Shown here: positions 11,789-38,607 of the stretch, in pieces
How the letters are laid out: every line of letters starts with the position of its first letter
Position numbering within the stretch: the stretch's first letter is position 1
Assembly: GCA_001771185.1 (NCBI GenBank)
Contig: METB01000001.1
Coordinates: 567,200 to 631,199, forward strand
Direction of reading: 5' to 3'
DNA: 64,000 nucleotides
From: a candidate division Kazan bacterium RIFCSPHIGHO2_01_FULL_44_14
Lineage (GTDB): Bacteria > Patescibacteriota > Kazan-3B-28
The notes under the pieces: generated by a model
The model's input: only the letters and a program-made list of their open reading frames with translations
Database searches by the model: none
Told to the model about the DNA's origin: nothing
Translations under genes and position numbers: made by a program

Positions 11789-12385
11789 ATGAATTTAATT
11801 CCAATGGTGATTGATAAGTCACCGATGGGGGAGCGAGCGTATGACATTTATTCTCGTTTGTTAAAGGACAGAATTATTTTTATTGGTGGGCCAATTGATG
11901 ACCAGATGGCCAATTCAGTAATTGCTCAATTATTGTTTTTGGAAAGTGAAGATCCAAAGAAAGATATTTCGCTGTACATCAACAGTCCTGGAGGTTCGGT
12001 GAGCGATGGGATGGCGATTTATGACACAATGCAACATGTGAAACCGGACATCAACACGATTTGTGTCGGGATGGCGGCTTCGATGGGCGCAGTTCTACTT
12101 TCTGGCGGAGCAAAAGGAAAACGATTTGCGTTGCCGAATTCACGGGTGATGATTCATCAGGTCTTAGGCGGAGCGCAAGGACAAGCCAGTGATATTGAAA
12201 TTCACGCTAAAGAAATTCTGAAATGGAAGAGTAAACTGAATGAATTGCTGGCGCATCATAGCGGACAGAAACTGGAAAAGATTGAGAAAGACACCGATCG
12301 AGATTTCTTTATGGAAGCACCAGAGGCCAAGGACTACGGAATTATTGACCAGGTGATTACGAATAAGACATTGGTGGCTAAATAA
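11789..12385 (+). CDS. clpP: ATP-dependent Clp protease proteolytic subunit
   Basis: 198 aa; motifs [45 protein letters not shown] (active-site Ser) and MIHQ (His). Confidence 0.9.
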
Positions 12386-12827
12386 ATCTAACCAATTTTC
12401 CCAATTTTCTGTCATCCCGAGCGAAGTCGACCAATCTCACCAATAGGGCAGAAGCAGAGAGGTTTTGGTTGTTTTCTGGATTCCGGCTCGTAGGCCGGAA
12501 TGACGAGGAAGCAGGATTGGGGGGAGGAATTATTGTTCTAGGACTGGCTATTGACCCGAATTCGGGAGTATTGTAAATTAAGCGCGTCTGCTGTCGCTTA
12601 ATGTTTAGTATTGATGAACACGTGCTCAAGGCGATGGCAGATGTTCTTTTTTACTTTTAACCAGGATTTGGGAGGCGCCATGAAAAAAGTTTTGAAGCTC
12701 CCGTTGGTGAGCGGTCCCTTCTTTGTCTGACGGAAGGTGAGTCGCTAAATGCAGTCAGTCATTGTTGGTTTCTCCTAATAGCATGACCATTGATTTTTAG
12801 TCATAACGCATCCTGGTTTTAATCCGC

Positions 12828-15685: not shown

Positions 15686-15772
15686 GCCGAGGTACCGAAG
15701 CGGTCAAACGGGACTGACTGTAAATCAGTTGGCTTTACGCCTTCCTAGGTTCGAATCCTAGCCTCGGCACCA
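15686..15772 (+). tRNA. tRNA-Tyr(GUA)
   Basis: Acceptor GCCGAGG/CCUCGGC; anticodon arm ACUGA-CUGUAAA-UCAGU; long variable arm; T-arm CUAGG-UUCGAAU-CCUAG; encoded CCA. Confidence 0.8.
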
Positions 15773-15947
15773 GAAGCCACCATCCAACTTGCTTGGATTG
15801 TAGCTTCTGTGACAGGTTGTGGAGTTGAAATATGTTCTGCATAAGGTTCGCTCGCGATGCTGCTTATATAAATTTGTTGTCTTCCTTGTTGCAGCGAGTG
15901 CAGGGCCCCCGCAGCCAGCGGGGAAATCATCCTAGCCTCGGTTTTAT

Positions 15948-16023
15948 GCCGCCTTAGCTCAGCTGGTAGAGCAATCGCTTTGTAAGCGAAAGGTCGTCGG
16001 TCCGAATCCGACAGGCGGCTCCA
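15948..16023 (+). tRNA. tRNA-Thr(UGU)
   Basis: Acceptor GCCGCCU/AGGCGGC; D-arm GCUCAGCUGGUAGAGC; anticodon loop UUUGUAA; T-arm GUCGG-UCCGAAU-CCGAC; encoded CCA. Confidence 0.8.
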
Positions 16024-16084
16024 GATGGGATACAATAGATGTGCACTATTTGCTATATCCGCTAAATTTTTAGGGAGTATATAT

Positions 16085-16963
16085 ATGAGAGATAAATTAG
16101 TGATGGGTGCATTATTGCTAACCCTAGTGACTATGACCAGTACGGCGGTGGCGGCACCGAGCGGGTCTTTTGGATGGCTAGGCCAGCTGGGCTCGCACAG
16201 AACTTTGGTCTTACCAGCCACGGCTGACCATTCGCCGGTTATCACGCTGGGGACGGCTGTCGATCTGACTACCGGTCAGACAGTAGATGGATATGCGATT
16301 GTTCACTACGCCAAAGGGGGCAACGGTGGCGGGAAACCCGGTAGTGGTGGTGGTTATGCGCTGATGGGGGCCAAATGGAAAACTGTAGAACCATGGTTGT
16401 TAAATCCCGTGAACACTGGTGGCTTGCCCTATGATCCACCGGGCGGATTTGGGAACAATAACTCTACTCCAGGTAGTAGCTTTGCTTTCTGGAACACATC
16501 CTATGACATCGACAAATGGGAAGATGCGGCCGATGGGGTAATGGGCAACGGTAGCGGCACTGATATTTTAGGCGACGGTACGGAAACATTTTCAACTCTG
16601 ACGGCCGATCTAGTTGCGCCCGATGGATTAAACGAGGTGTATTTTGCCGATGTATCGGAATCCGGGGCCATCGCTGTGACTATCGTGTGGGGAATTTTCA
16701 GCGGACCGCCGCAAAACCGCCAACTAGTAGAGTGGGATCAGGTCTATGACGACGTTGATTACGATTGGTCTACCTTCGGCGAAGCCAGCAAGATGGATTT
16801 TGAGAATATCGCTACGCACGAACTGGGCCACAGCGTCGGGTTGGCGGACCTGTATAGCCCAGCTGATTTAGAGCAGACGATGTACGGTTATGCCGATTTC
16901 GGAGAGACCAAAAAACAAACCCTAGAGTCAGGTGATATTGCCGGGACGGATAAGTTGTATTAG
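16085..16963 (+). CDS. secreted zinc metalloprotease, metzincin-like
   Basis: Signal peptide after MRDKLVMGALLLTLV...AVAAPSG; zinc motif HELGHSVGLAD and a downstream Met-turn (QTMYGY); the ORF-track start at 16025 overlaps the tRNA, so the start was taken at the ATG with a GGGAG RBS. Confidence 0.65.
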   Translation: MRDKLVMGALLLTLVTMTSTAVAAPSGSFGWLGQLGSHRTLVLPATADHSPVITLGTAVDLTTGQTVDGYAIVHYAKGGNGGGKPGSGGGYALMGAKWKTVEPWLLNPVNTGGLPYDPPGGFGNNNSTPGSSFAFWNTSYDIDKWEDAADGVMGNGSGTDILGDGTETFSTLTADLVAPDGLNEVYFADVSESGAIAVTIVWGIFSGPPQNRQLVEWDQVYDDVDYDWSTFGEASKMDFENIATHELGHSVGLADLYSPADLEQTMYGYADFGETKKQTLESGDIAGTDKLY

Positions 16964-17008: not shown

Positions 17009-17053
17009 CGGGTGACTTGACAGGAGAGGAGGGATATTTAATAATCTCCAAGT

Positions 17054-17476
17054 ATGGCAAAGAAGGTAAAAGCAGTTGTAAAAATCCAATGTGATGCGGG
17101 GAAGGCCAATCCAGCCCCTCCAGTTGGTACAGCATTAGGTCCTCACGGGATTGCGATTATGGATTTCTGCAACCAATATAACGAACAGACCCGTTCATTG
17201 ATGGGGCAAGTGATTCCAGCCGTAATCACTATCTATGAGGATAGGACTTTTGATTTTATTTTAAAGCAGGCACCAGCATCTGAATTGATAAAAAAAGCAA
17301 TTGGTTTAGATAAGGGCTCGGGGGTTCCTAATAAGCAAAAAGTTGGCAAAATAACGCGAGCCCAGTTAAGGACGATTGCCGAACAGAAGATGCCTGATTT
17401 GAATGCTTTAGACATCGATGCGGCAATGAAGATTTTGGCTGGAACCGCAAAGCAGATGGGAGTGGAGATAGAGTAA
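17054..17476 (+). CDS. rplK: 50S ribosomal protein L11
   Basis: 140 aa; canonical L11 N-terminus [33 protein letters not shown]. Confidence 0.9.
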
Positions 17477-17614
17477 TTTTTGTTTCTCCGACGAACGGAG
17501 GAGATACCATAAGGTAACCCCTCGGTGAACTCGGGGCAACAATTAATAAATTGTTGTTTATATTCCTAAGAGGCGGGAGCCGAAAGGCGTTTGCACCGCG
17601 TAAAGGAGAAGAAG

Positions 17615-18481
17615 ATGGCGAACGAAGTGAAGTCCACCGAAGCTAAAGCGAAGGTGGATAGAAAATCTAAAAAGGTGGTAAAGAAGTCTGACAAAGGAGG
17701 TAAATCCTCCTTCGCCCCCGACTTCGCTAAAGCTACGACGGGCAAGAAGGCTACGGAGGACATCGGAGCCAAGAAGAAGGTGGCTCCTCGTAAGTTTGGA
17801 CACGGCAAGAAATATCTGGCCGTTTTACCAAAGGTAGATAAGAATAAGTTCTATCCGGCGATTGAAGCGATTCAGTTAGTCAAAGAGACATCGCCAGTTA
17901 AATTTGATGCGACAGTAGAATTACACATGCAGATGGGGTTGGATCCAAAAAAATCCGAACAGAATATTCGGAGTACGGTTACGCTCCCTGCTGGTACTGG
18001 AAAGACCTTAAAGATTTTAGTGTTGGCAGAAGCGGGTGACGCAGAAAAAGCCAAGAAAGCTGGAGCCGATTTTGCTGGGCTAGAAGATATGATTGAGAAA
18101 ATTAGCAAGGGTTGGCTGGGGTTTGATGTGGTGATTGCTACGCCAGCCGTTATGCCGCAAATTGGGAAACTGGGACAGACCTTAGGAACTAAGGGGTTAA
18201 TGCCAAATCCTAAAGCCGGAACAGTGACGACGGATGTGGCCAAGGCAGTTGAAGAATTTAAAAAAGGTAAAGTTGAATTCCGGTTAGACAAAGATGCGAT
18301 TATTCACATGGGAATTGGGAAGGTATCGTTTACAGCTGAAAATTTATTGGCGAATTTGAACATAATTCTTGGTGCGGTGCGGGCGGCTAAACCGGGAAGT
18401 TCCAAGGGCACTTACATTAAGAGATTGTCACTCGCCAGTACGATGGGGCCCGGAGTAAAAATCGACCCAGGGTCGATTTAA
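17615..18481 (+). CDS. rplA: 50S ribosomal protein L1 with a ~65-aa Lys-rich N-terminal extension
   Basis: Conserved L1 core from KKYLAVLPKVD...TVELHMQMGLDPKKSEQNIRSTVTLPAGTGK; start taken at the ATG preceded by AAGGAG (the ORF track extends to 17591). Confidence 0.85.
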   Translation: MANEVKSTEAKAKVDRKSKKVVKKSDKGGKSSFAPDFAKATTGKKATEDIGAKKKVAPRKFGHGKKYLAVLPKVDKNKFYPAIEAIQLVKETSPVKFDATVELHMQMGLDPKKSEQNIRSTVTLPAGTGKTLKILVLAEAGDAEKAKKAGADFAGLEDMIEKISKGWLGFDVVIATPAVMPQIGKLGQTLGTKGLMPNPKAGTVTTDVAKAVEEFKKGKVEFRLDKDAIIHMGIGKVSFTAENLLANLNIILGAVRAAKPGSSKGTYIKRLSLASTMGPGVKIDPGSI

Positions 18482-18542
18482 TCTAACCAATCAAGACAAT
18501 CTGACCAATCTATACAATCAAGATAATCTAATCGATGTAAAA

Positions 18543-18896
18543 ATGGGGGAGATAAATAGAGATATTTATGAGCGGTGTGTTAGGTTTTCGGAAGTTGCGG
18601 TAGCGGTTTTAAGGAAACTCAAACCTGACTATATTGATCGGGTATTAATTGTTCAGTTGGTGAGATCTGCTACTTCAGTTGGGGCAAATATGATGGAAGC
18701 CAGTGAGTCGGTTTCAAAAAGAGATTTTGTAAATCGATTAAGTATCGCATTAAAGGAAGCCAAAGAATCTCGATATTGGATTAAACTTTTGGCGGTAACG
18801 CATTCGGAAGTTGAATCGCTATTAGTTGAATCAGATGAAATAGTTAAAATTTTAGCCACCATCAAGAGAAGATATTTGCTTGCCACTCAAGTTTAA
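18543..18896 (+). CDS. four-helix-bundle protein (23S rRNA intervening-sequence protein family)
   Basis: 117 aa; motif LVRSATSVGANMMEASESVSKRDFVNRLSIALKEAKESRYWIKLL is typical of the TIGR02436-like four-helix-bundle family. Confidence 0.6.
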   Translation: MGEINRDIYERCVRFSEVAVAVLRKLKPDYIDRVLIVQLVRSATSVGANMMEASESVSKRDFVNRLSIALKEAKESRYWIKLLAVTHSEVESLLVESDEIVKILATIKRRYLLATQV

Positions 18897-18979
18897 TTGA
18901 TTAGATAATCTTAGGTTGTCTACCTTGTTACGCGGTTTGATTGATTAGATTGGTGTAGATTGGATAAATTGGTTAGATT

Positions 18980-19411
18980 ATGAGAGTTAAAATAACTCGA
19001 ATCGACAAGACCTTGCCGTTGCCGATCTATAAGACCAAGGGTTCGGTGGGGTTTGATTTAGTCACGCGAGAAGAAACAATTATTAATCCGGGTGAAATTG
19101 CGCGGATTCCCAGCAACGTCATTGTCCAAACGCCAAAGGGGTATATGTTGCTGTTAGCGCTTAGGAGTTCGACGCCCATCAAAAAGCCGGGGCTGATTGT
19201 CCCTCATAGTGTTGGGATTGTGGATCAAGATTACTCGGGACCGGAGGATGAAATAAGATTTCAAGTCCAGAATGTTGGCGACCAAGTAATTAAAGTGGAA
19301 AGAGGGGAATCGATTGGACAAGGTGTGTTTGTGAGGGTTGAACAGGCAAATTTTGTGGAAATCGATAGGCCAAACGGTGCTAGCCGGGGTGGATTTGGCA
19401 GTACTGGGTAA
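18980..19411 (+). CDS. dut: dUTP diphosphatase
   Basis: 143 aa; dUTPase motifs GIVDQDYSGPEDE (motif III) and C-terminal RGGFGSTG (motif V). Confidence 0.85.
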   Translation: MRVKITRIDKTLPLPIYKTKGSVGFDLVTREETIINPGEIARIPSNVIVQTPKGYMLLLALRSSTPIKKPGLIVPHSVGIVDQDYSGPEDEIRFQVQNVGDQVIKVERGESIGQGVFVRVEQANFVEIDRPNGASRGGFGSTG

Positions 19412-19502
19412 ACCTGTTATAGTAAGCAAGTTTCATAGAACATCACTGGGGGACAGGGATGTTTTTGTAATCTTGAAAATCTAATCTGGAGGTACACAAG
19501 TA

Positions 19503-20489
19503 ATGTGCAGTTTAGGGGATGGCGGTTTGGAAGAGGTTTTCCAGCCGGTGGATTATCTGCCTTACGAGCAGCGTCAGCCTAACATTCAGCTGGAGCTGAT
19601 TGGTGAACGGGTATTGGATGGTGAAAATTCTTGGAGAGAAGATTCTCCTCAAGGTTTTGACACCATCAAGACGGTCGGAGTGCAACTTAGGTTCGCGATG
19701 GAGCAGGGTTTCCCCATCTCCACAGCGCGTGACATGTTGGCTCCGATTATGCGCGGAGAGCAGACGTTGCCGAACATATTCGAACAGGCCATCGGGGAGT
19801 GGGCGGCGTTTGCTAACGGTGCTCACACAACAGCCAAATTTGAGAAGTTTGGTTGCTACTGGTGGGACAGGTTTCTCCCCGGCGACAGGACGGCGTTTGT
19901 CGGTCTACTCGAAGGGGACAATGGGGCTGGTTCCTATGGTCCGGCATTTACCAACTTTCCGACACACGAGGGTGTTGGTTTCGACCAGCTGACCGGAGTG
20001 ATTGAGCAGATGAAGAAATTTCCATCCCTGCGTAATCACTTAGTCAGTCCGTGGATTGCACCCTATGCTTTTCGTGGAAAAAGTCAAAAGGTGCTGGTGG
20101 CGCCTTGCCATGGCTGGATGCACTTCATGATCAACACAAAGGAAGGGGCGTTGACGATGCATCATATTCAGCGGTCCGGCGATTTGTTCGTCGGCGTGCA
20201 GGGCTGTAATATTCCGCAGTACGCGGTAGTCGGTCTGGTCGTAGCCAATATCTTGGGCCTAAAGTTCAAGGAACTGGTTTATACCATTTCGGATGCCCAC
20301 GTCTACGACTACAAGGATCAGATCAAGAAGGTGCGCAAGATTATTAAGCGCGCCAAGACAAATGCTCGCGCCTTTCCGACGGTCTGGCTGCAGCGTAACT
20401 TTACCGCTCTTGCGGAGATGCGACCGGAGCATTTTCATGTGGAGGACTATAATCCACATCCCAAGATGCTAGTGCCAACCCCTATCTAA
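19503..20489 (+). CDS. thymidylate synthase family protein (divergent ThyA or dUMP/dCMP hydroxymethylase-like)
   Basis: ThyA-like core FDQLTGVIEQMKKFPSLRNHLVSPWIAPYAF...APCHGWMHFMINTKEGALTMHHIQRSGDLFVGV with catalytic Cys in PCH; canonical QRSxD and PFNIASYAL motifs are substituted. Confidence 0.65.
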   Translation: MCSLGDGGLEEVFQPVDYLPYEQRQPNIQLELIGERVLDGENSWREDSPQGFDTIKTVGVQLRFAMEQGFPISTARDMLAPIMRGEQTLPNIFEQAIGEWAAFANGAHTTAKFEKFGCYWWDRFLPGDRTAFVGLLEGDNGAGSYGPAFTNFPTHEGVGFDQLTGVIEQMKKFPSLRNHLVSPWIAPYAFRGKSQKVLVAPCHGWMHFMINTKEGALTMHHIQRSGDLFVGVQGCNIPQYAVVGLVVANILGLKFKELVYTISDAHVYDYKDQIKKVRKIIKRAKTNARAFPTVWLQRNFTALAEMRPEHFHVEDYNPHPKMLVPTPI

Positions 20490-20504
20490 AGGAGGTGATT
20501 CGGG

Positions 20505-21449
20505 GTGAGTGTCAACATCATTGTGGCCATGGATCTGAATTTGGCCATTGGGAAAGAAGGCAAACTGCCTTGGGCTGGTAAATTACAGGCTGACATGGAG
20601 AGATTTAAAACTCTCACCATGGGTCACCCAGTGATTATGGGTCGCAAGACCTGGCAGTCGATTCCGGATAAGTATCGGCCGTTACCAGGGAGACGCAACA
20701 TTGTAGTCACGCGCCATATCGGCTCGTTCAATACTAGAGGCGCAGAGATCTGTACATCGCTGGAGGAGGCACTGAATCTCGTTGTCGAGCAAGCCGAGGT
20801 GTTTATCATTGGCGGAGCCGAGATTTATCGGCAGACATTGCAGTATGCCGACAGGCTCTATGTCACATGGTTAAATGCCAATGTGAGTGGAGACGTTTTC
20901 TTCCCCGCCATTTTCCTTGTCAGTCCGTGGGTTAAGGTGTTCGCGGAGCATCATACGGCGGACAGCAAAAATCTCTACGACTACGACTTCTGGATGCTGG
21001 AGAAGTGGCCAATCGTGAATCCCGATAATGCGCGAGCCGAATCTTACCGCGAGGAGTTAATCGCTATTGCCAACAGTGGACAGTGTCCTTTCTGCCCGGG
21101 TGGGTACACGCTGATCGATCCATCTCAGCAGAAGGATTTTGTCCACGAGAACGGCTCATGGTTGGTAAAGTTCAACAACCATCCGTTGTTGGGGGCGGAG
21201 AAGCATTTCACGCTAATTCTCAAAGCCCACAAGTGGAGGGTTAGAGAACTGAACATTCAAGAAAGCGGAGATCTCGTGCGGGCTGTCGACTGGATTATTC
21301 AGCGCTACTCGGTAAGGGGTGGAGCACTCTTTATGCGCGAGGGCGACAGCACTCTAACTGGTGCTACGGTTGGTCATCTACACGCGCAGTATGTCGTACC
21401 TAAAGTCGGCGAAGCTGTCAGCGCTCGCTTCGGTCCGCCTCCGGCCTAA
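20505..21449 (+). CDS. folA: dihydrofolate reductase fused to a C-terminal GalT-like HIT domain (GTG start)
   Basis: N-terminal 165 aa is DHFR (IVAMDLNLAIGKEGKLPWAGKLQADMERFKTLTMGHPVIMGRKTW...IGGAEIY); C-terminal ~150 aa has CPFC and a GHLHAQY (HxHxQ) triad like the galactose-1-P uridylyltransferase/Ap4A-phosphorylase branch of HIT proteins. Confidence 0.7.
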   Translation: MSVNIIVAMDLNLAIGKEGKLPWAGKLQADMERFKTLTMGHPVIMGRKTWQSIPDKYRPLPGRRNIVVTRHIGSFNTRGAEICTSLEEALNLVVEQAEVFIIGGAEIYRQTLQYADRLYVTWLNANVSGDVFFPAIFLVSPWVKVFAEHHTADSKNLYDYDFWMLEKWPIVNPDNARAESYREELIAIANSGQCPFCPGGYTLIDPSQQKDFVHENGSWLVKFNNHPLLGAEKHFTLILKAHKWRVRELNIQESGDLVRAVDWIIQRYSVRGGALFMREGDSTLTGATVGHLHAQYVVPKVGEAVSARFGPPPA

Positions 21450-21461
21450 GAGTTGTTCTTT

Positions 21462-22355
21462 TCAAACCGCCTCGTCTACGGACGAGGCGGTTTTTTCATC
21501 CGCGGTCACCGGTTTTACCCATATTAATTTCACTCCATGCTGTTTTAATGTGGTCTGACCATCTAGCATCGCGTAGCCGGAAGTAAAAAACAATTTTTTA
21601 ATGCCGGAGTGAGCGATGATGGCTGAGCAATCCGGACAAGGGAAGGTAGTAACATATAAGCTGGCATTTTCCAGTGAGATACCTTTCTGAGCGGCTTCAG
21701 CAATAACATACTGTTCAGCGTGCAGACCGTTGTGCAAGTGAGTGCTGGTTCCAAGTGGAACATAATTTCTGGGGTCGCCTTCGGCATAAGCGGCTTGAGG
21801 AGAGGGGAGGCGGAGATTGTGATGAGTGGCGATAATTTGACCATTTTTAACCAATACAGCGCCAACTTGGCGGAACCAGTCCGGGCTTTGTTGGCTGGCG
21901 TCTTTGGCCAGTTCCATTATTTGATTATCAAAATCAGCTTCGGAAATTACTGCATCATATTGAACTGGTTTTTGGGATGGGACGGTCTGTTCGTCCCAAC
22001 GCAGAAAAACGGGTAGATATTCAACTGTGATGTTGGAAAAGTATTGTTTAGCGAGCTCGCGTGAAATGGTCTCGTTGGCCAGCAGAACTTTAACCGGGCG
22101 CAAGTTGTTTAATTCTGTTTTGTTGATAACTCGCACAGATTTAAATAACTGCAAGCCGTCAATGATGGCGTGCATGTCTTCGGGTGCTATCGCGCGGATT
22201 TCACGCTGAATTAACGGGAAATCTTGGATGATATCAGAGCCAATAATACACAACTCATCCACCTGCGCCGATTGTTGGCGTAGGAGTTCGAGATAGCCCC
22301 GATGGAGTACGGGGATATAAAGCAGGAGAACTGTGGACACGGGTTTAGAGATCAA
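21462..22355 (-). CDS. dCMP/cytidine deaminase-family protein with an N-terminal ~130-aa domain of unknown function
   Basis: Zinc-binding deaminase motifs HAEQYVIAEAA and PCPDCSAIIAHSGI in the C-terminal half. Confidence 0.7.
   Translation of the reverse strand: MISKPVSTVLLLYIPVLHRGYLELLRQQSAQVDELCIIGSDIIQDFPLIQREIRAIAPEDMHAIIDGLQLFKSVRVINKTELNNLRPVKVLLANETISRELAKQYFSNITVEYLPVFLRWDEQTVPSQKPVQYDAVISEADFDNQIMELAKDASQQSPDWFRQVGAVLVKNGQIIATHHNLRLPSPQAAYAEGDPRNYVPLGTSTHLHNGLHAEQYVIAEAAQKGISLENASLYVTTFPCPDCSAIIAHSGIKKLFFTSGYAMLDGQTTLKQHGVKLIWVKPVTADEKTASSVDEAV
21465..21498. terminator. bidirectional intrinsic terminator between the folA-HIT gene and the convergent dCMP deaminase gene
   Basis: aaaccgcctcgtc-tacg-gacgaggcggtttttt. 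Confidence 0.6.
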
Positions 22356-22917
22356 TTAACTCTTCTAATCGTTTTTTGGCTTCTTCCACCATCTGGATAT
22401 TCATCATCCGGAGTTTGGCAGATGTGGTGGTTTCGGCTTGTTGAGGGAAGATTACAACTTCGCCACTATATTTTTTGATTTCAGTCCACTGGTCGGGAGT
22501 GTAATCGTTCATCTCCGAAATGACAAAGATATCTGGCTGGATTTTTTTGATTAGTTCATAGCCAGTAATGCCATGCTCGTCGTAGTCAGTAGTAATGGTG
22601 ACAAGGTCAACATGTCGCAAGTGGGTGAGCATCTCTAAGCGTTCTTCGGCGGGTACCAATGGACGGCGAGGGCCCTTGCGCAGTTTGACCGCTTCATCGG
22701 GATCAATGCCGACTATAACAATACCATTGCGTTGTTTTGCTAGTTCTAAATATCTGGCGTGACCAATGTGAGCCAGGTCGAATGTGCCGAGAACGAGAAT
22801 CACTTTCTCGCCGATTTGTTTCAAGGATTTAACAATTTCTGATAGTTGGTCGTGATCGGCGACGAATCGGCGTTTGAAGTTGGAACCTGGTCCAAAAATA
22901 TCCGCTTTGGTTTCCAT
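22345..22917 (-). CDS. cytidylyltransferase-family nucleotidyltransferase (TagD/RfaE-domain-II-like)
   Basis: HxGH motif LVLGTFDLAHIGHARYLELAK and C-terminal ISxxxxYTxxxW/ETTSAKL region similar to glycerol-3-P cytidylyltransferase; overlaps the downstream gene by 11 nt (operon). Confidence 0.6.
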   Translation of the reverse strand: METKADIFGPGSNFKRRFVADHDQLSEIVKSLKQIGEKVILVLGTFDLAHIGHARYLELAKQRNGIVIVGIDPDEAVKLRKGPRRPLVPAEERLEMLTHLRHVDLVTITTDYDEHGITGYELIKKIQPDIFVISEMNDYTPDQWTEIKKYSGEVVIFPQQAETTTSAKLRMMNIQMVEEAKKRLEELIDL

Positions 22918-23170
22918 AAAAAATAGACCTCAATTAGTGATATGCCCCCGTGGCTTCTATCTTACCATATTGCTTGACAGTCCTACGGGGGTCGGCTAGG
23001 ATGGACAAGTATCCTTTAGAGACAGCAGGCACATATTAAGCCCTGCCGAGAGGGAACAGATAACAAGCTAATAAGCTGGTTAGATGTCCGTCTCGGAGGA
23101 GATGGATTTTTTATAATTTTTGTCTGGATTCCGGGTCGAGCCCGGAATGACAGATGGGAGGAAAACGAAC

Positions 23171-23692
23171 ATGCCTAAAAGTAAGGCACAAAAAGGCGCG
23201 GTAATCGACAAACTCACTTCTGAACTGAAGGCGACCGAGTTTGGGGTGTTAACCGATTTTACCGGACTGACAATGCCAGACCTGGATACTTTTCGTAAAA
23301 AAGCTCGCGAACAGAGCGTGAAATATACAGCGGTGAAGGCCTCGCTATTTGATATTGCCGCCAAGAACGCTGGATTAACTGGAATGCCAATTGTTAAGAC
23401 GGGTAAGAGTTATGCTTTTGCTTCGGGTGGGCAAGATGAAGTCAGTATTGCAAAATTGGTTTATGAAATGGCCAAGAAGAGCGATAACCGAGTGCACATT
23501 GCTTCGGGTGTGGTCCATGGTGAAGTGATATCGGGAGCTATGGTAATGCAGTTAGCACAGTTACCATCACGCGAGGAGTTACTAAGCAGAGTGGTTGGGA
23601 GTATGAATGCCCCGATTTCAAACTTTGTTTATGGATTAAATTACAATTTACAGTCGTTTTATAACGTGATAAAAGCGATAGCAGTTAAATAA
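23171..23692 (+). CDS. rplJ: 50S ribosomal protein L10
   Basis: MPKSKAQKGAVIDKLTSELKATEFGVLTDFTGLTMPDLDTFRKKAREQSVKYTAVK; start taken at the ATG following GGGAGG (the ORF track extends through an upstream repeat element). Confidence 0.85.
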   Translation: MPKSKAQKGAVIDKLTSELKATEFGVLTDFTGLTMPDLDTFRKKAREQSVKYTAVKASLFDIAAKNAGLTGMPIVKTGKSYAFASGGQDEVSIAKLVYEMAKKSDNRVHIASGVVHGEVISGAMVMQLAQLPSREELLSRVVGSMNAPISNFVYGLNYNLQSFYNVIKAIAVK

Positions 23693-23830
23693 TAAAGGTG
23701 GTTCCTCCCTCCTTCGCCTAAATGGTTACGGACGGGCAGGTAGTACTTCGGGATAACAATTTATTGCTTTTCCGAGGAACCGAGGAAATACATTGGTAAA
23801 ATTATATAGGTAATTTAAAAGGAGAAGATT

Positions 23831-24370
23831 ATGGCAGACGAACAAGATGTCAATCCAGAAGAGCAGACCCCAGAAGTTTCCACCTCCGCTGAAGCTACGG
23901 CGGACAAAGTGGCGGACATGTCTGCTGTAGAAGAGTCAAAGGTCGACAGCAAGTCCACCGAAGCCAAAGCGAAGGTGGATGAGAGCCAATTGTCCGCTAA
24001 CGCAAAGAAAGTAGTGGACATGGTGAGTGATATGAAAGTACTGGAACTAGCCGAGCTAGTTAAAGTACTGGAAGACAAATTCGGTGTCAGTGCTGCACCA
24101 GTTGCAGTGGCCGCTGGTGGCGGAGTAGCTGCAGGCGGAGCCGAAGTCGAAGAGAAGAGTTCTTACAATGTAGTTTTGACTGATGCTGGTGCAAATAAAA
24201 TCGGTGTGATTAAAGCCGTTCGGGAAGTTGTGCCAGAACTTGGTTTGAAAGAAGCTAAGGACTTAGTTGAAGCCGCGCCAAAAGCCGTGAAGGAAGGCGT
24301 GAAGAAAGAACAAGCCGAAGAAATGAAGAAGAAGCTTGAGGAAGCTGGAGCGAAAGTCGACTTGCAATAA
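23831..24370 (+). CDS. rplL: 50S ribosomal protein L7/L12 with an acidic ~50-aa N-terminal extension
   Basis: Conserved L12 core [29 protein letters not shown]...[54 protein letters not shown] preceded by an AGGAG RBS. Confidence 0.85.
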
Positions 24371-28614: not shown

Positions 28615-31600
28615 ATGACGACCGAAACGGGGGGCCAGCCAGTTGAATTGGCAGGACAAACCACCGTTGAGGCGGTGGCTGAACGAATTCGGGAACTAGA
28701 AGTCGGACCAGTGGTAGAAATTGCTACTGGTGAGATTAGAGATAGCCAGAAATTGGCGTTTGAGTCGCTCGAGAATCAGGATGGGAAAGTGGTTCGTAAT
28801 CCGGAGTATCTCAAGTTCTTAGGAAAACTTGATCAAGAATATGTTGATGAACGACTAGATAAAGAAGGAATGGTGAGGGTAAGGAATGTGGCAGTGATGT
28901 CAATTGATATTGCCGGTTTTTCTAATTTAGCCCAGGAATTTTTACAGGCCTCCTGGGGAGATCAGCGTGGGACCTATGCGGCCAAAAAAGTTGTCGATCA
29001 AATTGCTCCGGTACGCGAAGAAATTTTGAGTTCAGTCCACTTGTTTGGCGGAGAAGTTGATCAATTTTTGGGCGATGGAATGAATGTAATGTTTCGAGGT
29101 GGCACACCGGAAGAAAATGTGGCGCGGTCGGTGCAGGCAGCTGAACTTTTACGAAGCAATATTAAGGAACATTATCAATTTGATATTCGAATCGGGATAG
29201 ATATTGGCGACGTGGAATTAGTGGGATACGGTAGCGAAACCGAAAAACGGGCCGATATGATTGGGTCGGCAGTCCAAGGAGCGGAAAAAGTTCAGTCGCA
29301 GGCCGATGTCAAAGGTGGATACAACGTGACCTTGTCTGAAAAGGCCTATGCTTTAATGGAAGACAGTCAGTTTACGGTTTTGGAAAATGGTGTGTATGCC
29401 CTAGGGGAGATTGGCAAGAACGATTCAGTCAATGTGGCGGATTGGGTAACTGGCTTGAACGAAGAGTCAACCGATTTGGCTCTGGTTGAGAATACGATTA
29501 GGGTAAGGGAAAAGTTCTTGTCGAAATCACGGCGCAAAGAATTACGGAGTGAATTTTTATATGGAACCGAGCCCAGACAAGATGCCAGTCCTGTCAGTAC
29601 GGTCTTTGTCAGGTTGAATGTAGCGAAGATGGATTATCAGGAACTGAATCCGATTATGACCGAAGTGTTTGATATCGCCGGACGGTTGCGGGGTAAAGTG
29701 GATAAGGTCCACAATAACACCGTGATGATTAATTTCATCGCTCATTTGAATGATGTTAACAGTGTGGAGGCGAGTAAATTAGTGGCTGACTATTTAACTG
29801 ATCAACGAGTGGGTTTTGATATGGCAGCCAGTCGGTCTGAAGCGTTGGTATTGGCGGTTGATGGAGTGCGGACGGTCTATGGTGACGGAGTGATTCGAGC
29901 CAGACGGTTATTAGATGTAAATAATCCTGGCAATCGGTTAGTGGTGGACAAAAGCGTGATGGATCGGATGCTAACTCGTAAAGTTTCAGCAGATTCAATT
30001 CCGCCGGTTCGAGTGAAAGGGTTTAGTGAGCCAGTCGAACGGTTTGTGATTACTAAAATTGAACGGTCTTATGAATTGCCCAAGGGTAAACATTTGGCTG
30101 GACGAGAAATAGAGATAAAAGTGTTAGAGGATGACTTTGAGCTGGCTCGTAAAGAAGGACAAAGTCGAATCCTAATTGGTGAACCCGGGATTGGTAAATC
30201 GGCGTTAACGGCCGAGTTCTTGGCGCGCAAACAAAAAGGCGGATTGATGGTAATGGTTGGCCGAGCTGAAGCTAGTACTCAAAAACAGGCCTTCTCGGTA
30301 TGGCGTAACTTGCTGGAAGGCAGTTTGTCATTGAAAGATATGTTGGTCAAAGACAAAGAAGTAGCGATTAAAGAGTTTTATTTGTCTAACTGTCCAGTAT
30401 TATCCGAATCGTTGGCGTTATTGAATCCAATTTTGGGAACCAACTTTGAAGAAGGGGAAAAGGTTAAATATTTAGATGCTGTCGAACGCGATCAGTCCCG
30501 GGCGGAATTTGTGATGGAAACAATTAAATCGCTAACTAGCGTGGGAGTGCCAGCGGCTGTATTGTTGGAAGATTTACATTTCTTTGATCCATCATCAGAA
30601 GCCCTGGCGCGGGAGGTGATGAAGCGGGTCAAGGATTCTGATATTTATATTGTGTTAACTACTTGGCCGAAAGACGATGAACATAAACTGACTTTACCCA
30701 GGAAAGAATTCATGCGGGAGTTGGCTGATGTCAAGACACTCGAATTGGGCGGGTTGCCGGTATTCGGAGGAGATTATGACACAGCCAAAGATACGGTTGA
30801 GTTTGAACAGTGGTGGCAGGCCAATAAAGAGGTCTGGTGGCAGGCGGTAGACGCCTTTTTGGATCTGGACCGAAAAGATTTTGAAAAGAAGGAAATGGGG
30901 TATCGGCGCATTTTTACCAAGCTAGCCGAAAAAACCCAGGGCAACTTCTTGTATTTGGGTAACGCTATTTTCTACTTGGCTATTTATCAAGGGGAACGAC
31001 GATATTTTGAGGAAGACCAGAATACTAAACTGTATTCTTTGTGTGAACGAATCCAGGATGAGCAATTTGCCAACATTCCCAGTACCGAGTCGATTATCCA
31101 GTATCGGTTGGGGATGTTAGACATTGAGATCAAAAACTTGGCCCAAGATGCATCGGTGGTTGGGCTAGTGTTTACTTCAGAAGTTGTGTCGCTAATTAGT
31201 GGTGTGCCGATCGATCGCGTCAGGAGTAGTTTTGCATATGCCGAACAGAAGGGCTTCACGAAAGAACTGGGTGGAGGACAATGGATGTTTGTTCATGGCG
31301 CCATTCAAAATGCGGTGTATAACTCGATAGCGGATCTTAGACGGCGGCAGTTGAAGCATCGTGAGTTGGCCCAATACTTTGAAAAAACATCGCCAGATGA
31401 TTTGCCGCTGTTGGTGCGTCATTATCGTAATAGTGATGATTACTTGAAAGCAATGAAGTATTTGGATCAGTATGCTGAACGGCTGAAGGAGCAGGTGTTG
31501 TGGGGGCCGGCGCTCGATCAGATTCATTATGCTAGTAAGATTTTTGATAAAGTCCATGAACGGGGTTGGAAGATTGTAGACATCGGCTCGACTACTTACA

Positions 31601-38401: not shown

Positions 38402-38607
38402 AAGATAATCTAACCAATTTATCCAATCTGACCAATCTGACTAATTAAATCGCGGAGATGGGAGAGAGGAGAATGATAAGTGAAAAGTTAAGGTATCCCC
38501 TCGGTAAACTCGGGACATCGCCCCTCGGTTCCTCGGGGTAACAGATATTATTATGGTAGCTCTTCGGCTTCTCCTTGACTACGATCGAAGTCGCTTAGGA
38601 AATAAAT

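What the first reader, a model, noticed from the sequence alone, without database searches (positions are those of the whole stretch)
18543..22917. Complete dTMP-synthesis module inserted between rplA and rplJ
L11-L1 and L10-L7/L12 are almost universally contiguous. Here about 4.4 kb separates them. It encodes a four-helix-bundle intervening-sequence-type protein, dUTPase, a divergent thymidylate synthase, a DHFR fusion, and on the opposite strand a dCMP deaminase with an extra N-terminal domain plus a cytidylyltransferase.

Together these convert dCMP and dUTP to dTMP with folate recycling. The same module is found in large phages. Placement inside the most conserved ribosomal operon, the divergent ThyA active-site motifs and the four-helix-bundle gene suggest horizontal acquisition. 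Horizontal acquisition is inference.
Basis: partly seen in the sequence, partly recalled or inferred. Interest (0 to 1): 0.6.

Follow-up and report, generated by a model that had tools for sequence, protein, structure and literature searches.

The report
Conserved CPR thymidylate cluster, not phage insert
The thymidine-nucleotide genes sitting between ribosomal genes rplA and rplJ are real, but they are an old arrangement shared by hundreds of ultra-small Patescibacteria (CPR) bacteria rather than a phage-derived insertion, and they always travel with three uncharacterised nucleotide-handling proteins.

Summary
Between rplA (ends 18481) and rplJ lie a four-helix-bundle gene, dut, thyA and a DHFR fusion on the + strand. 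On the − strand lie a cytidylyltransferase (CT) and a dCMP deaminase with an extra N-terminal domain.

The interpretation of horizontal or phage acquisition is not supported. The window comes from a candidate division Kazan (CPR) genome. Kazan-like contigs carry the same arrangement. The core CT → N-dom-deaminase / ← HIT ← DHFR ← ThyA was found in 552 species-representative genomes, and all that carry an informative name are Patescibacteria. In 38 of 63 evaluable loci it sits directly after secE-nusG-rplK. In three further loci, one Saccharibacteria-labelled, it sits between rplA and rplJ.

Nothing related was found in IMG/VR. The best cultured-phage ThyA match is 29% identical, against 40-48% in other CPR.

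New points:
- The DHFR C-domain is a HIT hydrolase.
- The deaminase N-domain is a degenerate cytidylyltransferase fold (HxGH→HxGY).
- The canonical deaminase allosteric motif is absent.
- The module genes co-evolve tightly.

The four-helix-bundle gene is a separate, recent cassette with the hairpin shape of an rRNA intervening sequence (IVS), inserted exactly at the rplA-dut junction. The roles of CT, HIT and the N-domain are inferred only.

The parts
17054..17476 (+). rplK (L11), upstream anchor of the cluster
   Evidence: TIGR01632 194 bits. In 38 of 63 evaluable CPR loci rplK lies directly upstream of the module.
17615..18481 (+). rplA (L1) with a Lys-rich N-terminal extension of about 65 aa. 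The likely start is ATG 17615; the ORF opens at TTG 17591.
   Evidence: TIGR01169 312 bits over aa 71-293. An RBS and start similar to that of rplL (D7).
18479..18539 (+). 5' arm of the inverted repeat flanking the four-helix-bundle gene. It is built from 9-nt CAATCTNAC-type repeats and begins at the rplA stop codon.
   Evidence: Inverted repeats I1, I2 and I5. The RNA fold pairs this arm with 18895-18981, z = -5.4.
18543..18896 (+). Four-helix-bundle protein (23S rRNA IVS-protein family). It is a lineage-restricted cassette and not part of the conserved module.
   Evidence: TIGR02436 73 bits, PF05635 58 bits. Lowest GC3 in the window, 0.31, z -2.3. Present in L010 and L011; absent in L001 (rplA-dut gap of 4 nt), L003 and L006.
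18895..18981 (+). 3' arm of the inverted repeat. It ends at the dut start codon.
18980..19411 (+). dut, trimeric dUTPase (dUTP → dUMP + PPi)
   Evidence: PF00692 58.7 bits; NF001862 93.5 bits, below the cut-off of 103. Within 10 kb of the module in 24 of 78 CPR loci.
19503..20489 (+). thyA, CPR-type thymidylate synthase
   Evidence: PF00303 151 bits; TIGR03284 above its cut-off. Catalytic residues conserved, R21 and R127 equivalents replaced in all CPR-type sequences. 830 homologues; those named are Patescibacteria.
20505..21005 (+). DHFR domain of the fusion protein
   Evidence: PF00186 176 bits, aa 3-167. CPR folA genes complement E. coli ΔfolA (PMC11974145).
21006..21449 (+). HIT (histidine-triad) domain fused to DHFR, with motifs CPFCP and HLHAQ
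   Evidence: 28% identity, E 1e-21, to the stand-alone PF01230 HIT protein of L007. Family profile hits Hint/Fhit-type PDB chains, E 4e-6. Motif survey.
21472..21490 (+). Terminator-like hairpin plus T-run at the convergent junction. Consensus match only.
   Evidence: Terminator-like sites were not enriched in the region (11 found against 6.9 ± 2.8 expected).
21462..21935 (-). dCMP-deaminase (DCTD-fold) domain of the fusion protein
   Evidence: PF00383 70.9 bits. HAE and PCPDC motifs aligned to S-TIM5 and T4 dCMP deaminases. AF2 pLDDT 92; best fold matches 1vq2, 4p9c and 2hvw.
21936..22355 (-). N-terminal domain of the deaminase: a degenerate cytidylyltransferase-like Rossmann domain. Invariant residues are P15, H18, Y21, F117, L118 and R119; G20, R54, W120 and D121 are at least 90% conserved.
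   Evidence: No Pfam hit even at E 10. 362 representative clusters, nearly all at the N-terminus of 275-300-aa proteins. AF2 pLDDT 88. Foldseek best hits HldC, TagD, 3glv, NMNAT and PPAT, TM about 0.55, E 2e-3.
22345..22917 (-). Cytidylyltransferase-family protein (GCT/HldC-like) with intact GxFDxxHxGH. Its stop overlaps the deaminase start.
   Evidence: PF01467 71.6 bits; TIGR02199 92.7 bits against a cut-off of 181.5. PDB best hits 3elb and 5x9q. Invariant motifs in 110 orthologues. Immediately upstream of the deaminase in 75 of 78 loci. One CT+N-dom+deaminase triple fusion, P0348.
22918..23170 (.). Divergent intergenic region between CT and rplJ, with a promoter-like site at 22974-23002 (+) and a hairpin at 23086-23107
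   Evidence: Consensus matches only, not enriched over shuffles.
23171..23692 (+). rplJ (L10). The ORF opens at TTG 23120; the likely start is MPKSKAQ at 23171.
   Evidence: NF000955 118 bits, aa 24-188 of the long ORF.
23831..24370 (+). rplL (L7/L12) with an acidic N-terminal extension of about 55 aa
   Evidence: TIGR00855 134 bits, aa 57-178.

Best explanation
This is a resident, lineage-conserved thymidylate-synthesis gene cluster of Patescibacteria (CPR). Its home is the gap after rplK/rplA and before rplJL. It is not a recent phage-derived insertion.

Well supported by family assignment:
- Dut makes dUMP from dUTP.
- The DCTD-fold deaminase makes dUMP from a deoxycytidine nucleotide.
- ThyA methylates dUMP to dTMP.
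- DHFR regenerates tetrahydrofolate.
- The genome's class II ribonucleotide reductase supplies the deoxynucleotides.

Shown by comparative genomics: three further proteins are obligate members of the cluster. They are a catalytically intact GCT/HldC-type nucleotidyltransferase (CT), a degenerate copy of that fold fused to the N-terminus of the deaminase, and a Hint-like HIT hydrolase, here fused to DHFR.

Inferred:
- CT pairs with the pseudo-CT domain, as the two tandem domains of ethanolamine-phosphate cytidylyltransferase do.
- Together with HIT it controls or feeds the deaminase.
- One route is conversion of (d)CTP to dCMP through a nucleotidylated intermediate that HIT hydrolyses.
- The other is nucleotide sensing that replaces the lost dCTP/dTTP allosteric site.

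In the Kazan lineage the whole block is inverted relative to most CPR, dut has been recruited next to rplA, and DHFR and HIT are fused. The four-helix-bundle gene is a later, separate IVS-like hairpin cassette dropped exactly between the rplA stop and the dut start.
For: Gene identities.

Organism: the ThyA is 100% identical to that of candidate division Kazan bacterium RIFCSPHIGHO2_01_FULL_44_14, on a contig of about 700 kb.

Synteny:
- The same rplA-[module]-rplJ arrangement is seen in Kazan-like contigs with ThyA 74, 62 and 51% identical.
- Distant CPR (ThyA 45%) have thyA-HIT/DHFR~HIT, deaminase and CT next to secE-nusG-rplK.
- 552 species-representative genomes encode the fusion deaminase.
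- In 78 mapped loci, CT is adjacent in 75 of 78, HIT is convergent in 63 of 66, thyA is present in 64 of 66, and rplK lies upstream in 38 of 63.
- L062, L072 and L079 have rplK-rplA-[module]-rplJ-rplL.

Orthology of the accessory parts.

Structure and motifs:
- N-domain fold.
- CT motifs invariant.
- HIT triad kept in 97 of 113 ORFs.
- HIT profile hits Hint/Fhit.
- DCTD allosteric motif G(Y/W)N(A/G) (PMC12088426) is HHNL here and xHNxH in the family.

Coupling: triple fusion P0348. Intra-module co-evolution gives Mantel r 0.69-0.81, like nusG-rplK at 0.75.

Against a phage source. Composition. RNR. Four-helix-bundle cassette.
Against: - No biochemical data exist for CT, the N-domain or HIT. 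Their conserved linkage could be inherited gene order without shared function.
- Only one triple fusion was seen, and it could be a gene-calling artefact.
- The module is only weakly congruent with the neighbouring rplK and nusG genes (Mantel r 0.16-0.47).
- Two locus pairs show sharp discordance between flank and module. Exchange or replacement of the module among CPR lineages, or strong rate shifts, therefore occurred.
- thyA and folA~HIT are the highest-GC3 genes in the window.
- Taxon labels of many MAGs are automatic and unreliable. The tblastn search for the poorly conserved L10 may miss rplJ in some loci.
Confidence: 0.8

Rival explanations
1. This is the first reader's reading: a recent horizontal acquisition, from a large phage or other mobile element, of a dTMP module that split the rplKA-rplJL operon in this genome.
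For: - thyA and folA~HIT have the highest GC3 in the window, z +2.7 to +2.8.
- Phages carry homologues of Dut, ThyA, DHFR and dCMP deaminase.
- The deaminase domain's closest solved structures are phage enzymes.
- The four-helix-bundle gene is indeed a recent insertion.
Against: - The same slot is occupied in Kazan-like relatives down to 51% ThyA identity, and in distant CPR.
- The best phage ThyA is 29% identical, against 40-48% for CPR.
- No IMG/VR relative of the fusion deaminase was found.
- N-dom and HIT have no PHROG hit.
- GC elevation of thyA and folA recurs in other CPR lineages.
- No integrase was found among the ORFs flanking the block. The one long direct repeat that brackets it lies inside rplA and rplL.
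Confidence: 0.04
2. The cluster is ancestral to the locus but is laterally exchanged, or replaced in situ, as a unit among Patescibacteria. On this view the Kazan copy could be a xenologue from another CPR lineage. This is compatible with the best explanation for what the cluster is, but it changes its history.
For: - Module genes co-vary strongly with each other (r 0.69-0.81) but weakly with rplK and nusG (r 0.16-0.47).
- L028 and L049 have nusG and rplK 93% identical, but module proteins only 50-62%.
- L072 and L079 have ThyA 90% identical, against ribosomal proteins at 42-57%.
- The module is inverted in Kazan relative to most CPR.
- A paper reports a putative thyA transfer into Patescibacteria (PMC12455944).
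Against: - Within the Kazan-like set, module identities track ribosomal-protein identities.
- Lineage-specific rate shifts would give the same Mantel pattern. Divergent ThyA groups still cluster with their relatives.
- No mobile-element genes flank the block.
Confidence: 0.3
3. CT and HIT, and possibly the N-domain, have nothing to do with thymidylate synthesis. CT would be, for example, a RibL-like FAD synthase, an NMN adenylyltransferase or a sugar-phosphate nucleotidyltransferase, and HIT a general housekeeping hydrolase. They would be neighbours only through frozen gene order in small genomes.
For: - CT's nearest characterised relatives act on sugar or alcohol phosphates.
- HIT proteins are generalists.
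- CPR genomes keep much conserved synteny.
- No direct functional data exist.
Against: - CT and the deaminase genes overlap or abut in 75 of 78 loci, with one fusion.
- DHFR~HIT fusions occur in at least 10 lineages.
- The deaminase carries a degenerate copy of the CT fold.
- thyA-CT distance matrices correlate at r 0.81.
- The block keeps its internal order even where it has left rplK (L012-L018).
Confidence: 0.2
4. The fused deaminase is a defence-type dCTP deaminase (DcdV-like nucleotide depletion), or the cluster makes a modified DNA base, rather than housekeeping dTMP.
For: - There are weak partial hits of the catalytic stretch to NF041025 (anti-phage dCTP deaminase) and to the PADLOC 'dCTPase' model.
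- DCTD-fold enzymes with extra domains can act on dCTP (PMC12088426; DcdV preprint listed).
Against: - NF041025 scores 65 bits against a cut-off of 400, and only aa 210-263 match.
- The N-domain is not a P-loop kinase.
- The cluster is near-universal, single-copy and embedded in a housekeeping locus.
- ThyA keeps the Asn177 equivalent, which I recall (own knowledge) marks dUMP specificity, and sits next to DHFR, consistent with true methylation.
Confidence: 0.05

Closest known systems
Bacterial and phage thyA-folA (td-frd) thymidylate units, and the T4 dNTP-synthesis gene set (dUTPase/dCTPase, dCMP deaminase, Td, Frd)
   Same: The same four core chemistries are present: dUTP → dUMP, dC-nucleotide → dUMP, dUMP → dTMP, DHF → THF. 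ThyA and DHFR are adjacent. The deaminase domain is of the zinc DCTD type, closest to the T4 and S-TIM5 enzymes.
   Different: - The cluster is chromosomal and restricted to Patescibacteria among named genomes.
- It is fixed in the rplK/rplA-rplJ gap.
- It carries CT, a pseudo-CT domain on the deaminase and a HIT hydrolase. These are absent from phage families.
- The deaminase lacks the G(Y/W)N(A/G) allosteric motif.
- ThyA lacks two of the four phosphate-binding arginines.
Ethanolamine-phosphate cytidylyltransferase (ECT, PDB 3elb) and the GCT/HldC family of HxGH nucleotidyltransferases
   Same: CT has an intact GxFDxxHxGH motif and a C-terminal T-x-T-x-x-K motif. Its best PDB hits are ECT, HldC, CCT and TagD. 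An active CT next to a second, divergent CT-fold domain recalls ECT's tandem domains.
   Different: - The second domain is on a different polypeptide, fused to a deaminase.
- It has HxGY and no second signature motif.
- The CT scores below the HldC/RfaE-II equivalog cut-off (92.7 against 181.5), so its substrate is unknown.
Multidomain DCTD-fold deaminases (vertebrate CDADC1, V. cholerae DcdV, PBCV-1 bi-DCD)
   Same: A DCTD catalytic domain is combined with an extra nucleotide-related domain. Precedent shows such enzymes may take dCTP or dCDP rather than dCMP and may dispense with canonical allostery (PMC12088426).
   Different: The extra domain here is a nucleotidyltransferase-like Rossmann fold, not a second deaminase domain or a P-loop kinase. 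The genomic context is housekeeping dTMP synthesis.
23S rRNA intervening sequences (IVS) encoding four-helix-bundle proteins (PF05635 / TIGR02436)
   Same: The protein family is the same. The ORF sits in the loop of a long stem formed by flanking inverted repeats, as in RNase III-processed rRNA IVSs. Such ORFs are known in CPR rRNA insertions (PMC11270868).
   Different: The element is inserted in an mRNA intergenic spacer of a ribosomal-protein/thymidylate operon, not in rRNA. Its arms are built from a genome-wide 9-nt intergenic repeat.

Membership tests
Thymidylate synthase ThyA (PF00303 / TIGR03284) | Profile score above the curated cut-off | tested here: met
   PF00303 151.5 bits against 24.3; TIGR03284 117.7 against 108.35. 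All PDB hits are thymidylate synthases.
Thymidylate synthase ThyA (PF00303 / TIGR03284) | Catalytic Cys146-His147, Q165-R166-S167-x-D169, N177, H207 and Y209 (E. coli numbering) | tested here: met
   C202, H203, Q223, R224, S225, D227, N236 and H266 are invariant in the alignment with E. coli ThyA.
Thymidylate synthase ThyA (PF00303 / TIGR03284) | All four dUMP-phosphate arginines (R21, R126', R127', R166) | tested here: not met
   R21 is replaced by P (Q in other CPR) and R127 by N (T in other CPR) in every CPR-type sequence aligned. R126 and R166 are kept. This is a lineage trait, not specific to this genome.
Dihydrofolate reductase (PF00186) | Full-length DHFR domain above the cut-off | tested here: met
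   176.4 bits against 25, aa 3-167 matching profile positions 2-159 of 159.
HIT superfamily (PF01230, Hint/Fhit branch) | Histidine-triad motif H-x-H-x-H/Q-x-x with the nucleophilic second His | tested here: met
   HLHAQYV in the window. 73 HxHxH and 24 HxHxQ among 113 orthologous ORFs. H124 and H126 are invariant.
HIT superfamily (PF01230, Hint/Fhit branch) | Sequence-profile membership | tested here: inconclusive
   The window domain alone gives no Pfam hit. It aligns at E 1e-21 to the L007 protein that carries PF01230. The L072 orthologue hits PF01230 at 41 bits. The family profile hits Hint/Fhit chains in the PDB at E 4e-6.
dCMP deaminase (DCTD, EC 3.5.4.12) | HxE and PCxxC zinc and catalytic motifs | tested here: met
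   H212-A-E214 and P239-C240-P-D-C243 are invariant or nearly so. They align to the S-TIM5 and T4 enzymes.
dCMP deaminase (DCTD, EC 3.5.4.12) | Allosteric G(Y/W)N(A/G) motif for dCTP/dTTP (as defined in PMC12088426) | tested here: not met
   The corresponding residues are H-H-N-L in the window and xHNxH in the family consensus. Only the Asn is conserved.
dCMP deaminase (DCTD, EC 3.5.4.12) | Substrate is the monophosphate; homohexamer | not testable with these tools
   Needs enzymology. Precedents exist for DCTD-fold enzymes acting on dCTP.
HxGH (HIGH) nucleotidyltransferases / cytidylyltransferase-like (PF01467): the CT protein | GxFDxxHxGH motif and C-terminal nucleotide-binding motif | tested here: met
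   G44, D47, H50, G52, H53, T163, T165, K168 and R170 are 93-100% conserved in 110 orthologues. PF01467 71.6 bits.
D-glycero-β-D-manno-heptose-1-phosphate adenylyltransferase (RfaE domain II / HldC, TIGR02199) | Equivalog score above the cut-off | tested here: not met
   92.7 bits against a cut-off of 181.5. The automatic names saying 'heptose' are therefore unsupported.
HxGH nucleotidyltransferase fold: the N-terminal domain of the deaminase | Rossmann-like fold matching family structures | tested here: inconclusive
   The best Foldseek PDB hits are all from this family (HldC, TagD, 3glv, NMNAT, PPAT) at probability 0.96-1.0. TM is only 0.44-0.57 and E 2e-3 to 1e-2. There is no sequence-profile hit.
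HxGH nucleotidyltransferase fold: the N-terminal domain of the deaminase | Catalytic HxGH | tested here: not met
   H18 and Y21 are invariant and G20 is at least 90% conserved, giving H18-x-G20-Y21 with the second His replaced by Tyr. There is no second signature motif.
Trimeric dUTPase (PF00692) | Domain above the Pfam cut-off; equivalog cut-off | tested here: met
   PF00692 58.7 bits against 22 is met. NCBIfam equivalog NF001862 at 93.5 against 103 is not met, so this is a divergent member.
23S rRNA IVS four-helix-bundle protein (TIGR02436 / PF05635) | Profile membership | tested here: met
   TIGR02436 73.4 bits against 24; PF05635 58.3 against 33.8.
23S rRNA IVS element | Located inside an rRNA gene; stem formed by the flanks and cut by RNase III | tested here: not met
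   No rRNA is present in the window, and the element lies between rplA and dut. The flank stem is predicted, z -5.4. Cleavage is not testable here.
Anti-phage dCTP deaminase (NF041025 / PADLOC dCTPase) | Full-length profile match | tested here: not met
   65 bits against a cut-off of 400. Only aa ~210-263 match.
Phage-derived or mobile genomic island | Mobility genes or att repeats, foreign composition, absence from relatives, phage-affiliated phylogeny | tested here: not met
   - No integrase was found among the flanking ORFs, and the only long direct repeat bracketing the block lies inside rplA and rplL.
- The block is present in relatives.
- Composition is mixed but shared by other CPR.
- The closest homologues are CPR, not phage.

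The most novel reading that the evidence does not exclude
The CT, the pseudo-CT domain fused to the deaminase, and the HIT hydrolase together form a previously unrecognised, Patescibacteria-wide enzyme or regulatory system for pyrimidine deoxynucleotide interconversion. One possibility is a two-step nucleotidyl-transfer and HIT-hydrolysis route from (d)CTP to dCMP that feeds the deaminase downstream of an RNR. Another is a new nucleotide-sensing device that replaces the classical dCTP/dTTP allosteric site. Either would be physically coupled to ThyA and DHFR. The location of the cluster in the rplK-rplJ gap would then tie dTMP supply to ribosomal-protein expression in these minimal cells.
Probability: 0.3. 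Interest if true: 0.7.

Novelty: new variant of a known kind. Interest (0 to 1): 0.5.

Why it matters
CPR bacteria cannot make most nucleotides and live on what their hosts provide. How they balance dCTP and dTTP is therefore central to their replication.

A thymidylate cluster conserved in at least 552 species-level genomes points to undescribed biochemistry or regulation in a very well-studied pathway. It always includes an active nucleotidyltransferase, a degenerate copy of that fold welded to a dCMP deaminase lacking the classical allosteric motif, and a HIT hydrolase often fused to DHFR.

The result also corrects a tempting misreading. In this radiation, interruption of the rplKA-rplJL operon is the common state at these loci, not a sign of recent gene transfer.

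The side finding may help to explain how four-helix-bundle elements spread and are processed. It is an rRNA-IVS-type four-helix-bundle hairpin cassette inserted precisely between two protein-coding genes.

Tried and rejected
- **Phage origin.** tblastn of ThyA and Dut against 50,697 phage records gave at best 29% and 40% identity. A scan of IMG/VR with the fusion-deaminase alignment found nothing. Rejected.
- **Composition as an HGT signal.** thyA and folA~HIT are GC3 outliers in the window. The same genes are GC-enriched relative to their neighbours in four other CPR loci, so this was rejected as evidence of recent transfer.
- **Identity to the window against identity of rplK across loci.** This had no power because non-Kazan CPR are roughly equidistant from the window. 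It was replaced by Mantel tests.
- **The 137-aa ORF in the L003 slot.** It is not a four-helix-bundle homologue.
- **Pfam on the isolated N-domain and HIT domain at E 10.** No useful hit. PDB sequence search with the HIT domain alone gave only noise.
- **Full-length deaminase model against the PDB.** Only the deaminase domain matched, so the N-domain was modelled separately.
- **Rfam.** Only two tRNAs; no L10 or L1 leader and no rRNA.
- **Promoter and terminator scans.** Not enriched over shuffles, so the operon structure is unresolved.
- **Defence-system reading.** Only a partial catalytic-motif hit. Rejected.
- **Literature.** Searches for the CT/HIT/deaminase/ThyA cluster in CPR found nothing specific. 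PMC4281768 is not held.

Full report
**1. What is there**

- rplK, 17054-17476.
- rplA, ending at 18481, with a Lys-rich N-terminal extension.
- A four-helix-bundle protein of the 23S-rRNA-IVS family, 18543-18896 (TIGR02436, 73 bits).
- dut, 18980-19411.
- thyA, 19503-20489 (TIGR03284 above its cut-off).
- A 314-aa protein, 20505-21449, whose first 167 residues are DHFR.
- On the opposite strand and convergent, a 297-aa protein, 21462-22355. Its C-terminal half is a zinc dCMP-deaminase domain.
- A 190-aa cytidylyltransferase-family protein (CT), 22345-22917, whose stop overlaps the deaminase start.
- rplJ and rplL follow, from about 23171 and from 23831.

The ThyA is 100% identical to that of 'candidate division Kazan bacterium RIFCSPHIGHO2_01_FULL_44_14', on a contig of about 700 kb. 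The window is therefore from a CPR/Patescibacteria genome.

The surrounding region is already unlike the textbook operon.
- There is no secE-nusG upstream. A matrixin-like peptidase follows tRNA-Tyr and tRNA-Thr instead.
- There is no rpoBC downstream. A tgt gene follows instead.

**2. The two unassigned domains**

*C-terminal domain of the DHFR protein.* It gives no Pfam hit on its own. It aligns at E 1e-21 with a stand-alone protein at the equivalent position in a distant CPR contig, and that protein carries PF01230, HIT.

It has the N-terminal CPFC motif and the triad HLHAQ. A survey of 113 orthologous ORFs found HxHxH in 73 and HxHxQ in 24. A family profile hits Hint/Fhit-type HIT proteins in the PDB at E 4e-6. 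DHFR~HIT fusions occur in at least ten lineages, and many loci carry a second HIT paralogue.

*N-terminal ~140 residues of the deaminase.*
- They have no Pfam match.
- They define a family of 362 representative clusters, found almost only at the N-terminus of 275-300-aa proteins.
- P15, H18, Y21, F117, L118 and R119 are invariant; G20, R54, W120 and D121 are at least 90% conserved.
- AlphaFold models are confident: pLDDT 92 for the full length and 88 for the domain.
- The domain is a five-stranded Rossmann-like fold.
- Its best PDB matches are all HxGH nucleotidyltransferases: HldC, TagD, 3glv, NMNAT and PPAT. TM is about 0.55, E about 2e-3 and probability about 1.
- These are the same families that the neighbouring CT gene belongs to.

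*The CT itself.* It keeps GxFDxxHxGH, KGxxRP and a C-terminal TxTxxKxR in 110 orthologues. It scores well below the HldC/RfaE-II equivalog cut-off, so its substrate is unknown.

*The deaminase domain.* It has HAE and PCxxC and is closest to the T4, S-TIM5 and S. mutans dCMP deaminases. The allosteric G(Y/W)N(A/G) motif that binds dCTP and dTTP in DCTDs (PMC12088426) is HHNL here and xHNxH in the family.

**3. Is ThyA divergent?**

Yes, but as a lineage trait. R21 and R127 are replaced in every CPR-type sequence, and there are CPR-specific insertions. The 120 best homologues are 40-48% identical outside the Kazan group, and all that carry a name are Patescibacteria.

**4. Synteny**

*Kazan-like contigs.* Contigs with ThyA 74%, 62% and 51% identical show the same order and orientation, rplK-rplA-[dut]-thyA-DHFR~HIT / deaminase-CT / rplJ.

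*Distant CPR.* Contigs with ThyA 45% identical have thyA → HIT (or DHFR~HIT) → ← deaminase ← CT (← DHFR) ← rplK ← nusG ← secE. Full-length orthology holds for the deaminase (38%), CT (39%) and HIT (28%).

*Genome survey.* A scan of one genome per GTDB species with the fusion-deaminase alignment found 552 genomes. The 80 best loci that carry informative names are all Patescibacteria. A tblastn map of 78 loci gave these counts.

| Feature | Loci |
|---|---|
| CT immediately upstream of the deaminase | 75 of 78 |
| Convergent HIT | 63 of 66 evaluable |
| thyA present | 64 of 66 evaluable |
| DHFR within 10 kb | 66 of 78 |
| dut within 10 kb | 24 of 78 |
| tmk within 10 kb | 11 of 78 |
| secE-nusG-rplK directly upstream, same strand | 38 of 63 evaluable |

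Three loci have rplK-rplA-[module]-rplJ-rplL (L062, L072, L079). For L072, a Saccharibacteria-labelled genome, this was checked by Pfam, and the module there also holds a Tmk~ThyX fusion.

Most loci lack rplA nearby. This fits the reported frequent loss of L1 in CPR (bioRxiv 10.1101/2022.01.07.475337).

The block therefore belongs to the rplK/rplA-rplJ gap across the radiation. In the Kazan lineage it is inverted relative to the common orientation.

**5. Tests of horizontal or phage origin**

*Phage comparison.*
- Cultured-phage ThyA is at most 29% identical.
- Dut is at most 40% identical, which is uninformative for so short a protein. Kazan-like Dut is 56-83% identical and other CPR Dut has a median of 33%.
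- IMG/VR has no relative of the fusion deaminase.
- PHROGs match only the generic enzyme domains.

*Composition.* dut, the deaminase and CT lie within 1 sd of the window's genes. thyA and folA~HIT have the highest GC3, 0.60, z about +2.8. thyA and DHFR are also GC-enriched relative to their neighbours in four other CPR loci, with GC3 following in most of them.

*Within the Kazan-like set.* Module identities fall in step with those of the ribosomal proteins.

| Locus | Ribosomal proteins | Module proteins |
|---|---|---|
| L010 | rplK 93%, rplA 85% | ThyA 90%, deaminase 81% |
| L001 | rplK 74%, rplA 75% | ThyA 73%, deaminase 75%, CT 79% |

*Across CPR.* Distance-matrix (Mantel) tests show the module genes co-evolving as tightly as nusG and rplK do, but only weakly with those neighbours.

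| Pair | Mantel r |
|---|---|
| thyA-CT | 0.81 |
| thyA-deaminase | 0.70 |
| deaminase-CT | 0.69 |
| nusG-rplK | 0.75 |
| module genes against rplK or nusG | 0.16-0.47 |

Two locus pairs show sharp discordance.
- L028 and L049: nusG and rplK 93% identical, module 50-62%.
- L072 and L079: ThyA 90% identical, ribosomal proteins 42-57%.

Either the block undergoes lineage-specific rate shifts, or it is sometimes exchanged among CPR. I cannot separate these. Neither points to phage.

**6. How it most likely works**

*Well supported by family membership and conserved catalytic residues.*
- Dut: dUTP → dUMP.
- The deaminase: dC-nucleotide → dU-nucleotide.
- ThyA: dUMP → dTMP.
- DHFR: DHF → THF. CPR folA genes complement E. 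coli ΔfolA (PMC11974145).
- The window also encodes a class II ribonucleotide reductase at 55312-58167, so deoxycytidine di- or triphosphates are made in the cell.

*Shown by comparative genomics.* CT, the pseudo-CT domain and HIT are obligate members of the block. One CT+N-dom+deaminase fusion exists (P0348), though a single case could be an artefact.

*Inferred (about 0.3).* CT pairs with the pseudo-CT domain and, with HIT, either generates the deaminase substrate or senses nucleotides.
- In the first case an NTP plus an acceptor gives NMP-X plus PPi, and HIT hydrolysis of NMP-X gives the NMP. The net reaction is a dCTP → dCMP route.
- In the second case the pair provides nucleotide sensing in place of the missing classical allosteric site.

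The phosphorylation state of the deaminase substrate is open, given the precedents for dCTP-active DCTD-fold enzymes.

**7. The four-helix-bundle gene is a separate matter**

It has the lowest GC3 in the window. It is present only in the closest relatives, L010 and L011. It is absent in L001, where the rplA stop and dut start are 4 nt apart, and the slot holds an unrelated ORF in L003.

It is bracketed by imperfect inverted repeats of about 50-60 nt that start at the rplA stop codon and end at the dut start codon. The RNA fold pairs these arms into a long stem enclosing the ORF, z = -5.4. This is the architecture of RNase III-processed rRNA IVSs, whose ORFs of this family are known in CPR rRNA insertions (PMC11270868). 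Here it lies in an mRNA spacer. Processing is an inference.

**8. Verdict**

The functional reading is supported. The horizontal or phage acquisition reading is not supported.

This is a new variant of a known kind: a thymidylate-synthesis cluster with three conserved, uncharacterised nucleotide-handling partners, fixed in the ribosomal-protein gap of a whole radiation. I found no description of it in the searchable literature, which does not prove that none exists.

Noticed in passing
window 17630-17659 and 23951-23980 (also 17602-17626 / 23818-23842): A 30-nt stretch, 29 of 30 identical, encodes [10 protein letters not shown] in the N-terminal extensions of both L1 and L7/L12. None is expected by chance. 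The RBS and start regions of the two genes are also similar. Kazan-like relatives have L1 extensions without this motif. As a direct repeat it brackets rplA, the module and rplJ.
   Followed up: partly
window 12384-12444, 18479-18539, 18937-18981 (reverse orientation), 38406-38445, 39910-39949, 50260-50290: Tandem 9-nt repeats of the type CAATCTAAC/CAATCTGAC occur 13 times, against 0.7 expected (pattern TAATCTAACCAATC, up to 2 mismatches). They lie almost only in intergenic spacers, abutting stop codons or running into start codons (for example ...CAATCTAACCAATG at 39948 and 50289). Their function is unknown. They form the arms of the four-helix-bundle cassette.
   Followed up: partly
window 55312-58167: A class II (B12-dependent) ribonucleotide reductase with a TSCPD domain. 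It is relevant to which deoxycytidine nucleotide feeds the deaminase.
   Followed up: no
window 15686-16963: tRNA-Tyr and tRNA-Thr are followed by a matrixin-like (Peptidase_M10) gene directly upstream of rplK, where secE-nusG would be expected. The peptidase-rplK order is conserved in Kazan-like contigs L001 and L006.
   Followed up: partly
L072 6990-9305: A 771-aa fusion of thymidylate kinase with a ThyX (Thy1) domain lies between rplA and the CT gene in a Saccharibacteria-labelled genome that also has ThyA in the same block. Its rplA encodes a 354-aa L1 with an N-terminal extension of about 150 aa.
   Followed up: no
L014, L019, L024, L030, L036, L047, L055 and others, about 500-1700 bp downstream of the deaminase: Many CPR loci carry two, and in L055 more, HIT-family ORFs between the deaminase and thyA. 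Some second copies lack a recognisable triad.
   Followed up: no
L028 versus L049; L072 versus L079: There is sharp discordance between flank and module divergence. In L028/L049, nusG and rplK are 93% identical but the module is 50-62%. In L072/L079, ThyA is 90% identical but ribosomal proteins are 42-57%. This suggests rate shifts or module exchange within CPR.
   Followed up: partly
window 28615-32859: A 1414-aa protein with a nucleotide-cyclase-like domain, an AAA_16 ATPase and TPR repeats (a STAND-like architecture) lies a few kb downstream of rplL, where rpoB and rpoC would usually be.
   Followed up: no
window 17017-17045: The best sigma-70-like match in the region (TTGACA-17-AATAAT, 11 of 12) ends only 8 nt before the rplK start codon. 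If it is used, the transcript would be nearly leaderless. It is a consensus match only.
   Followed up: no
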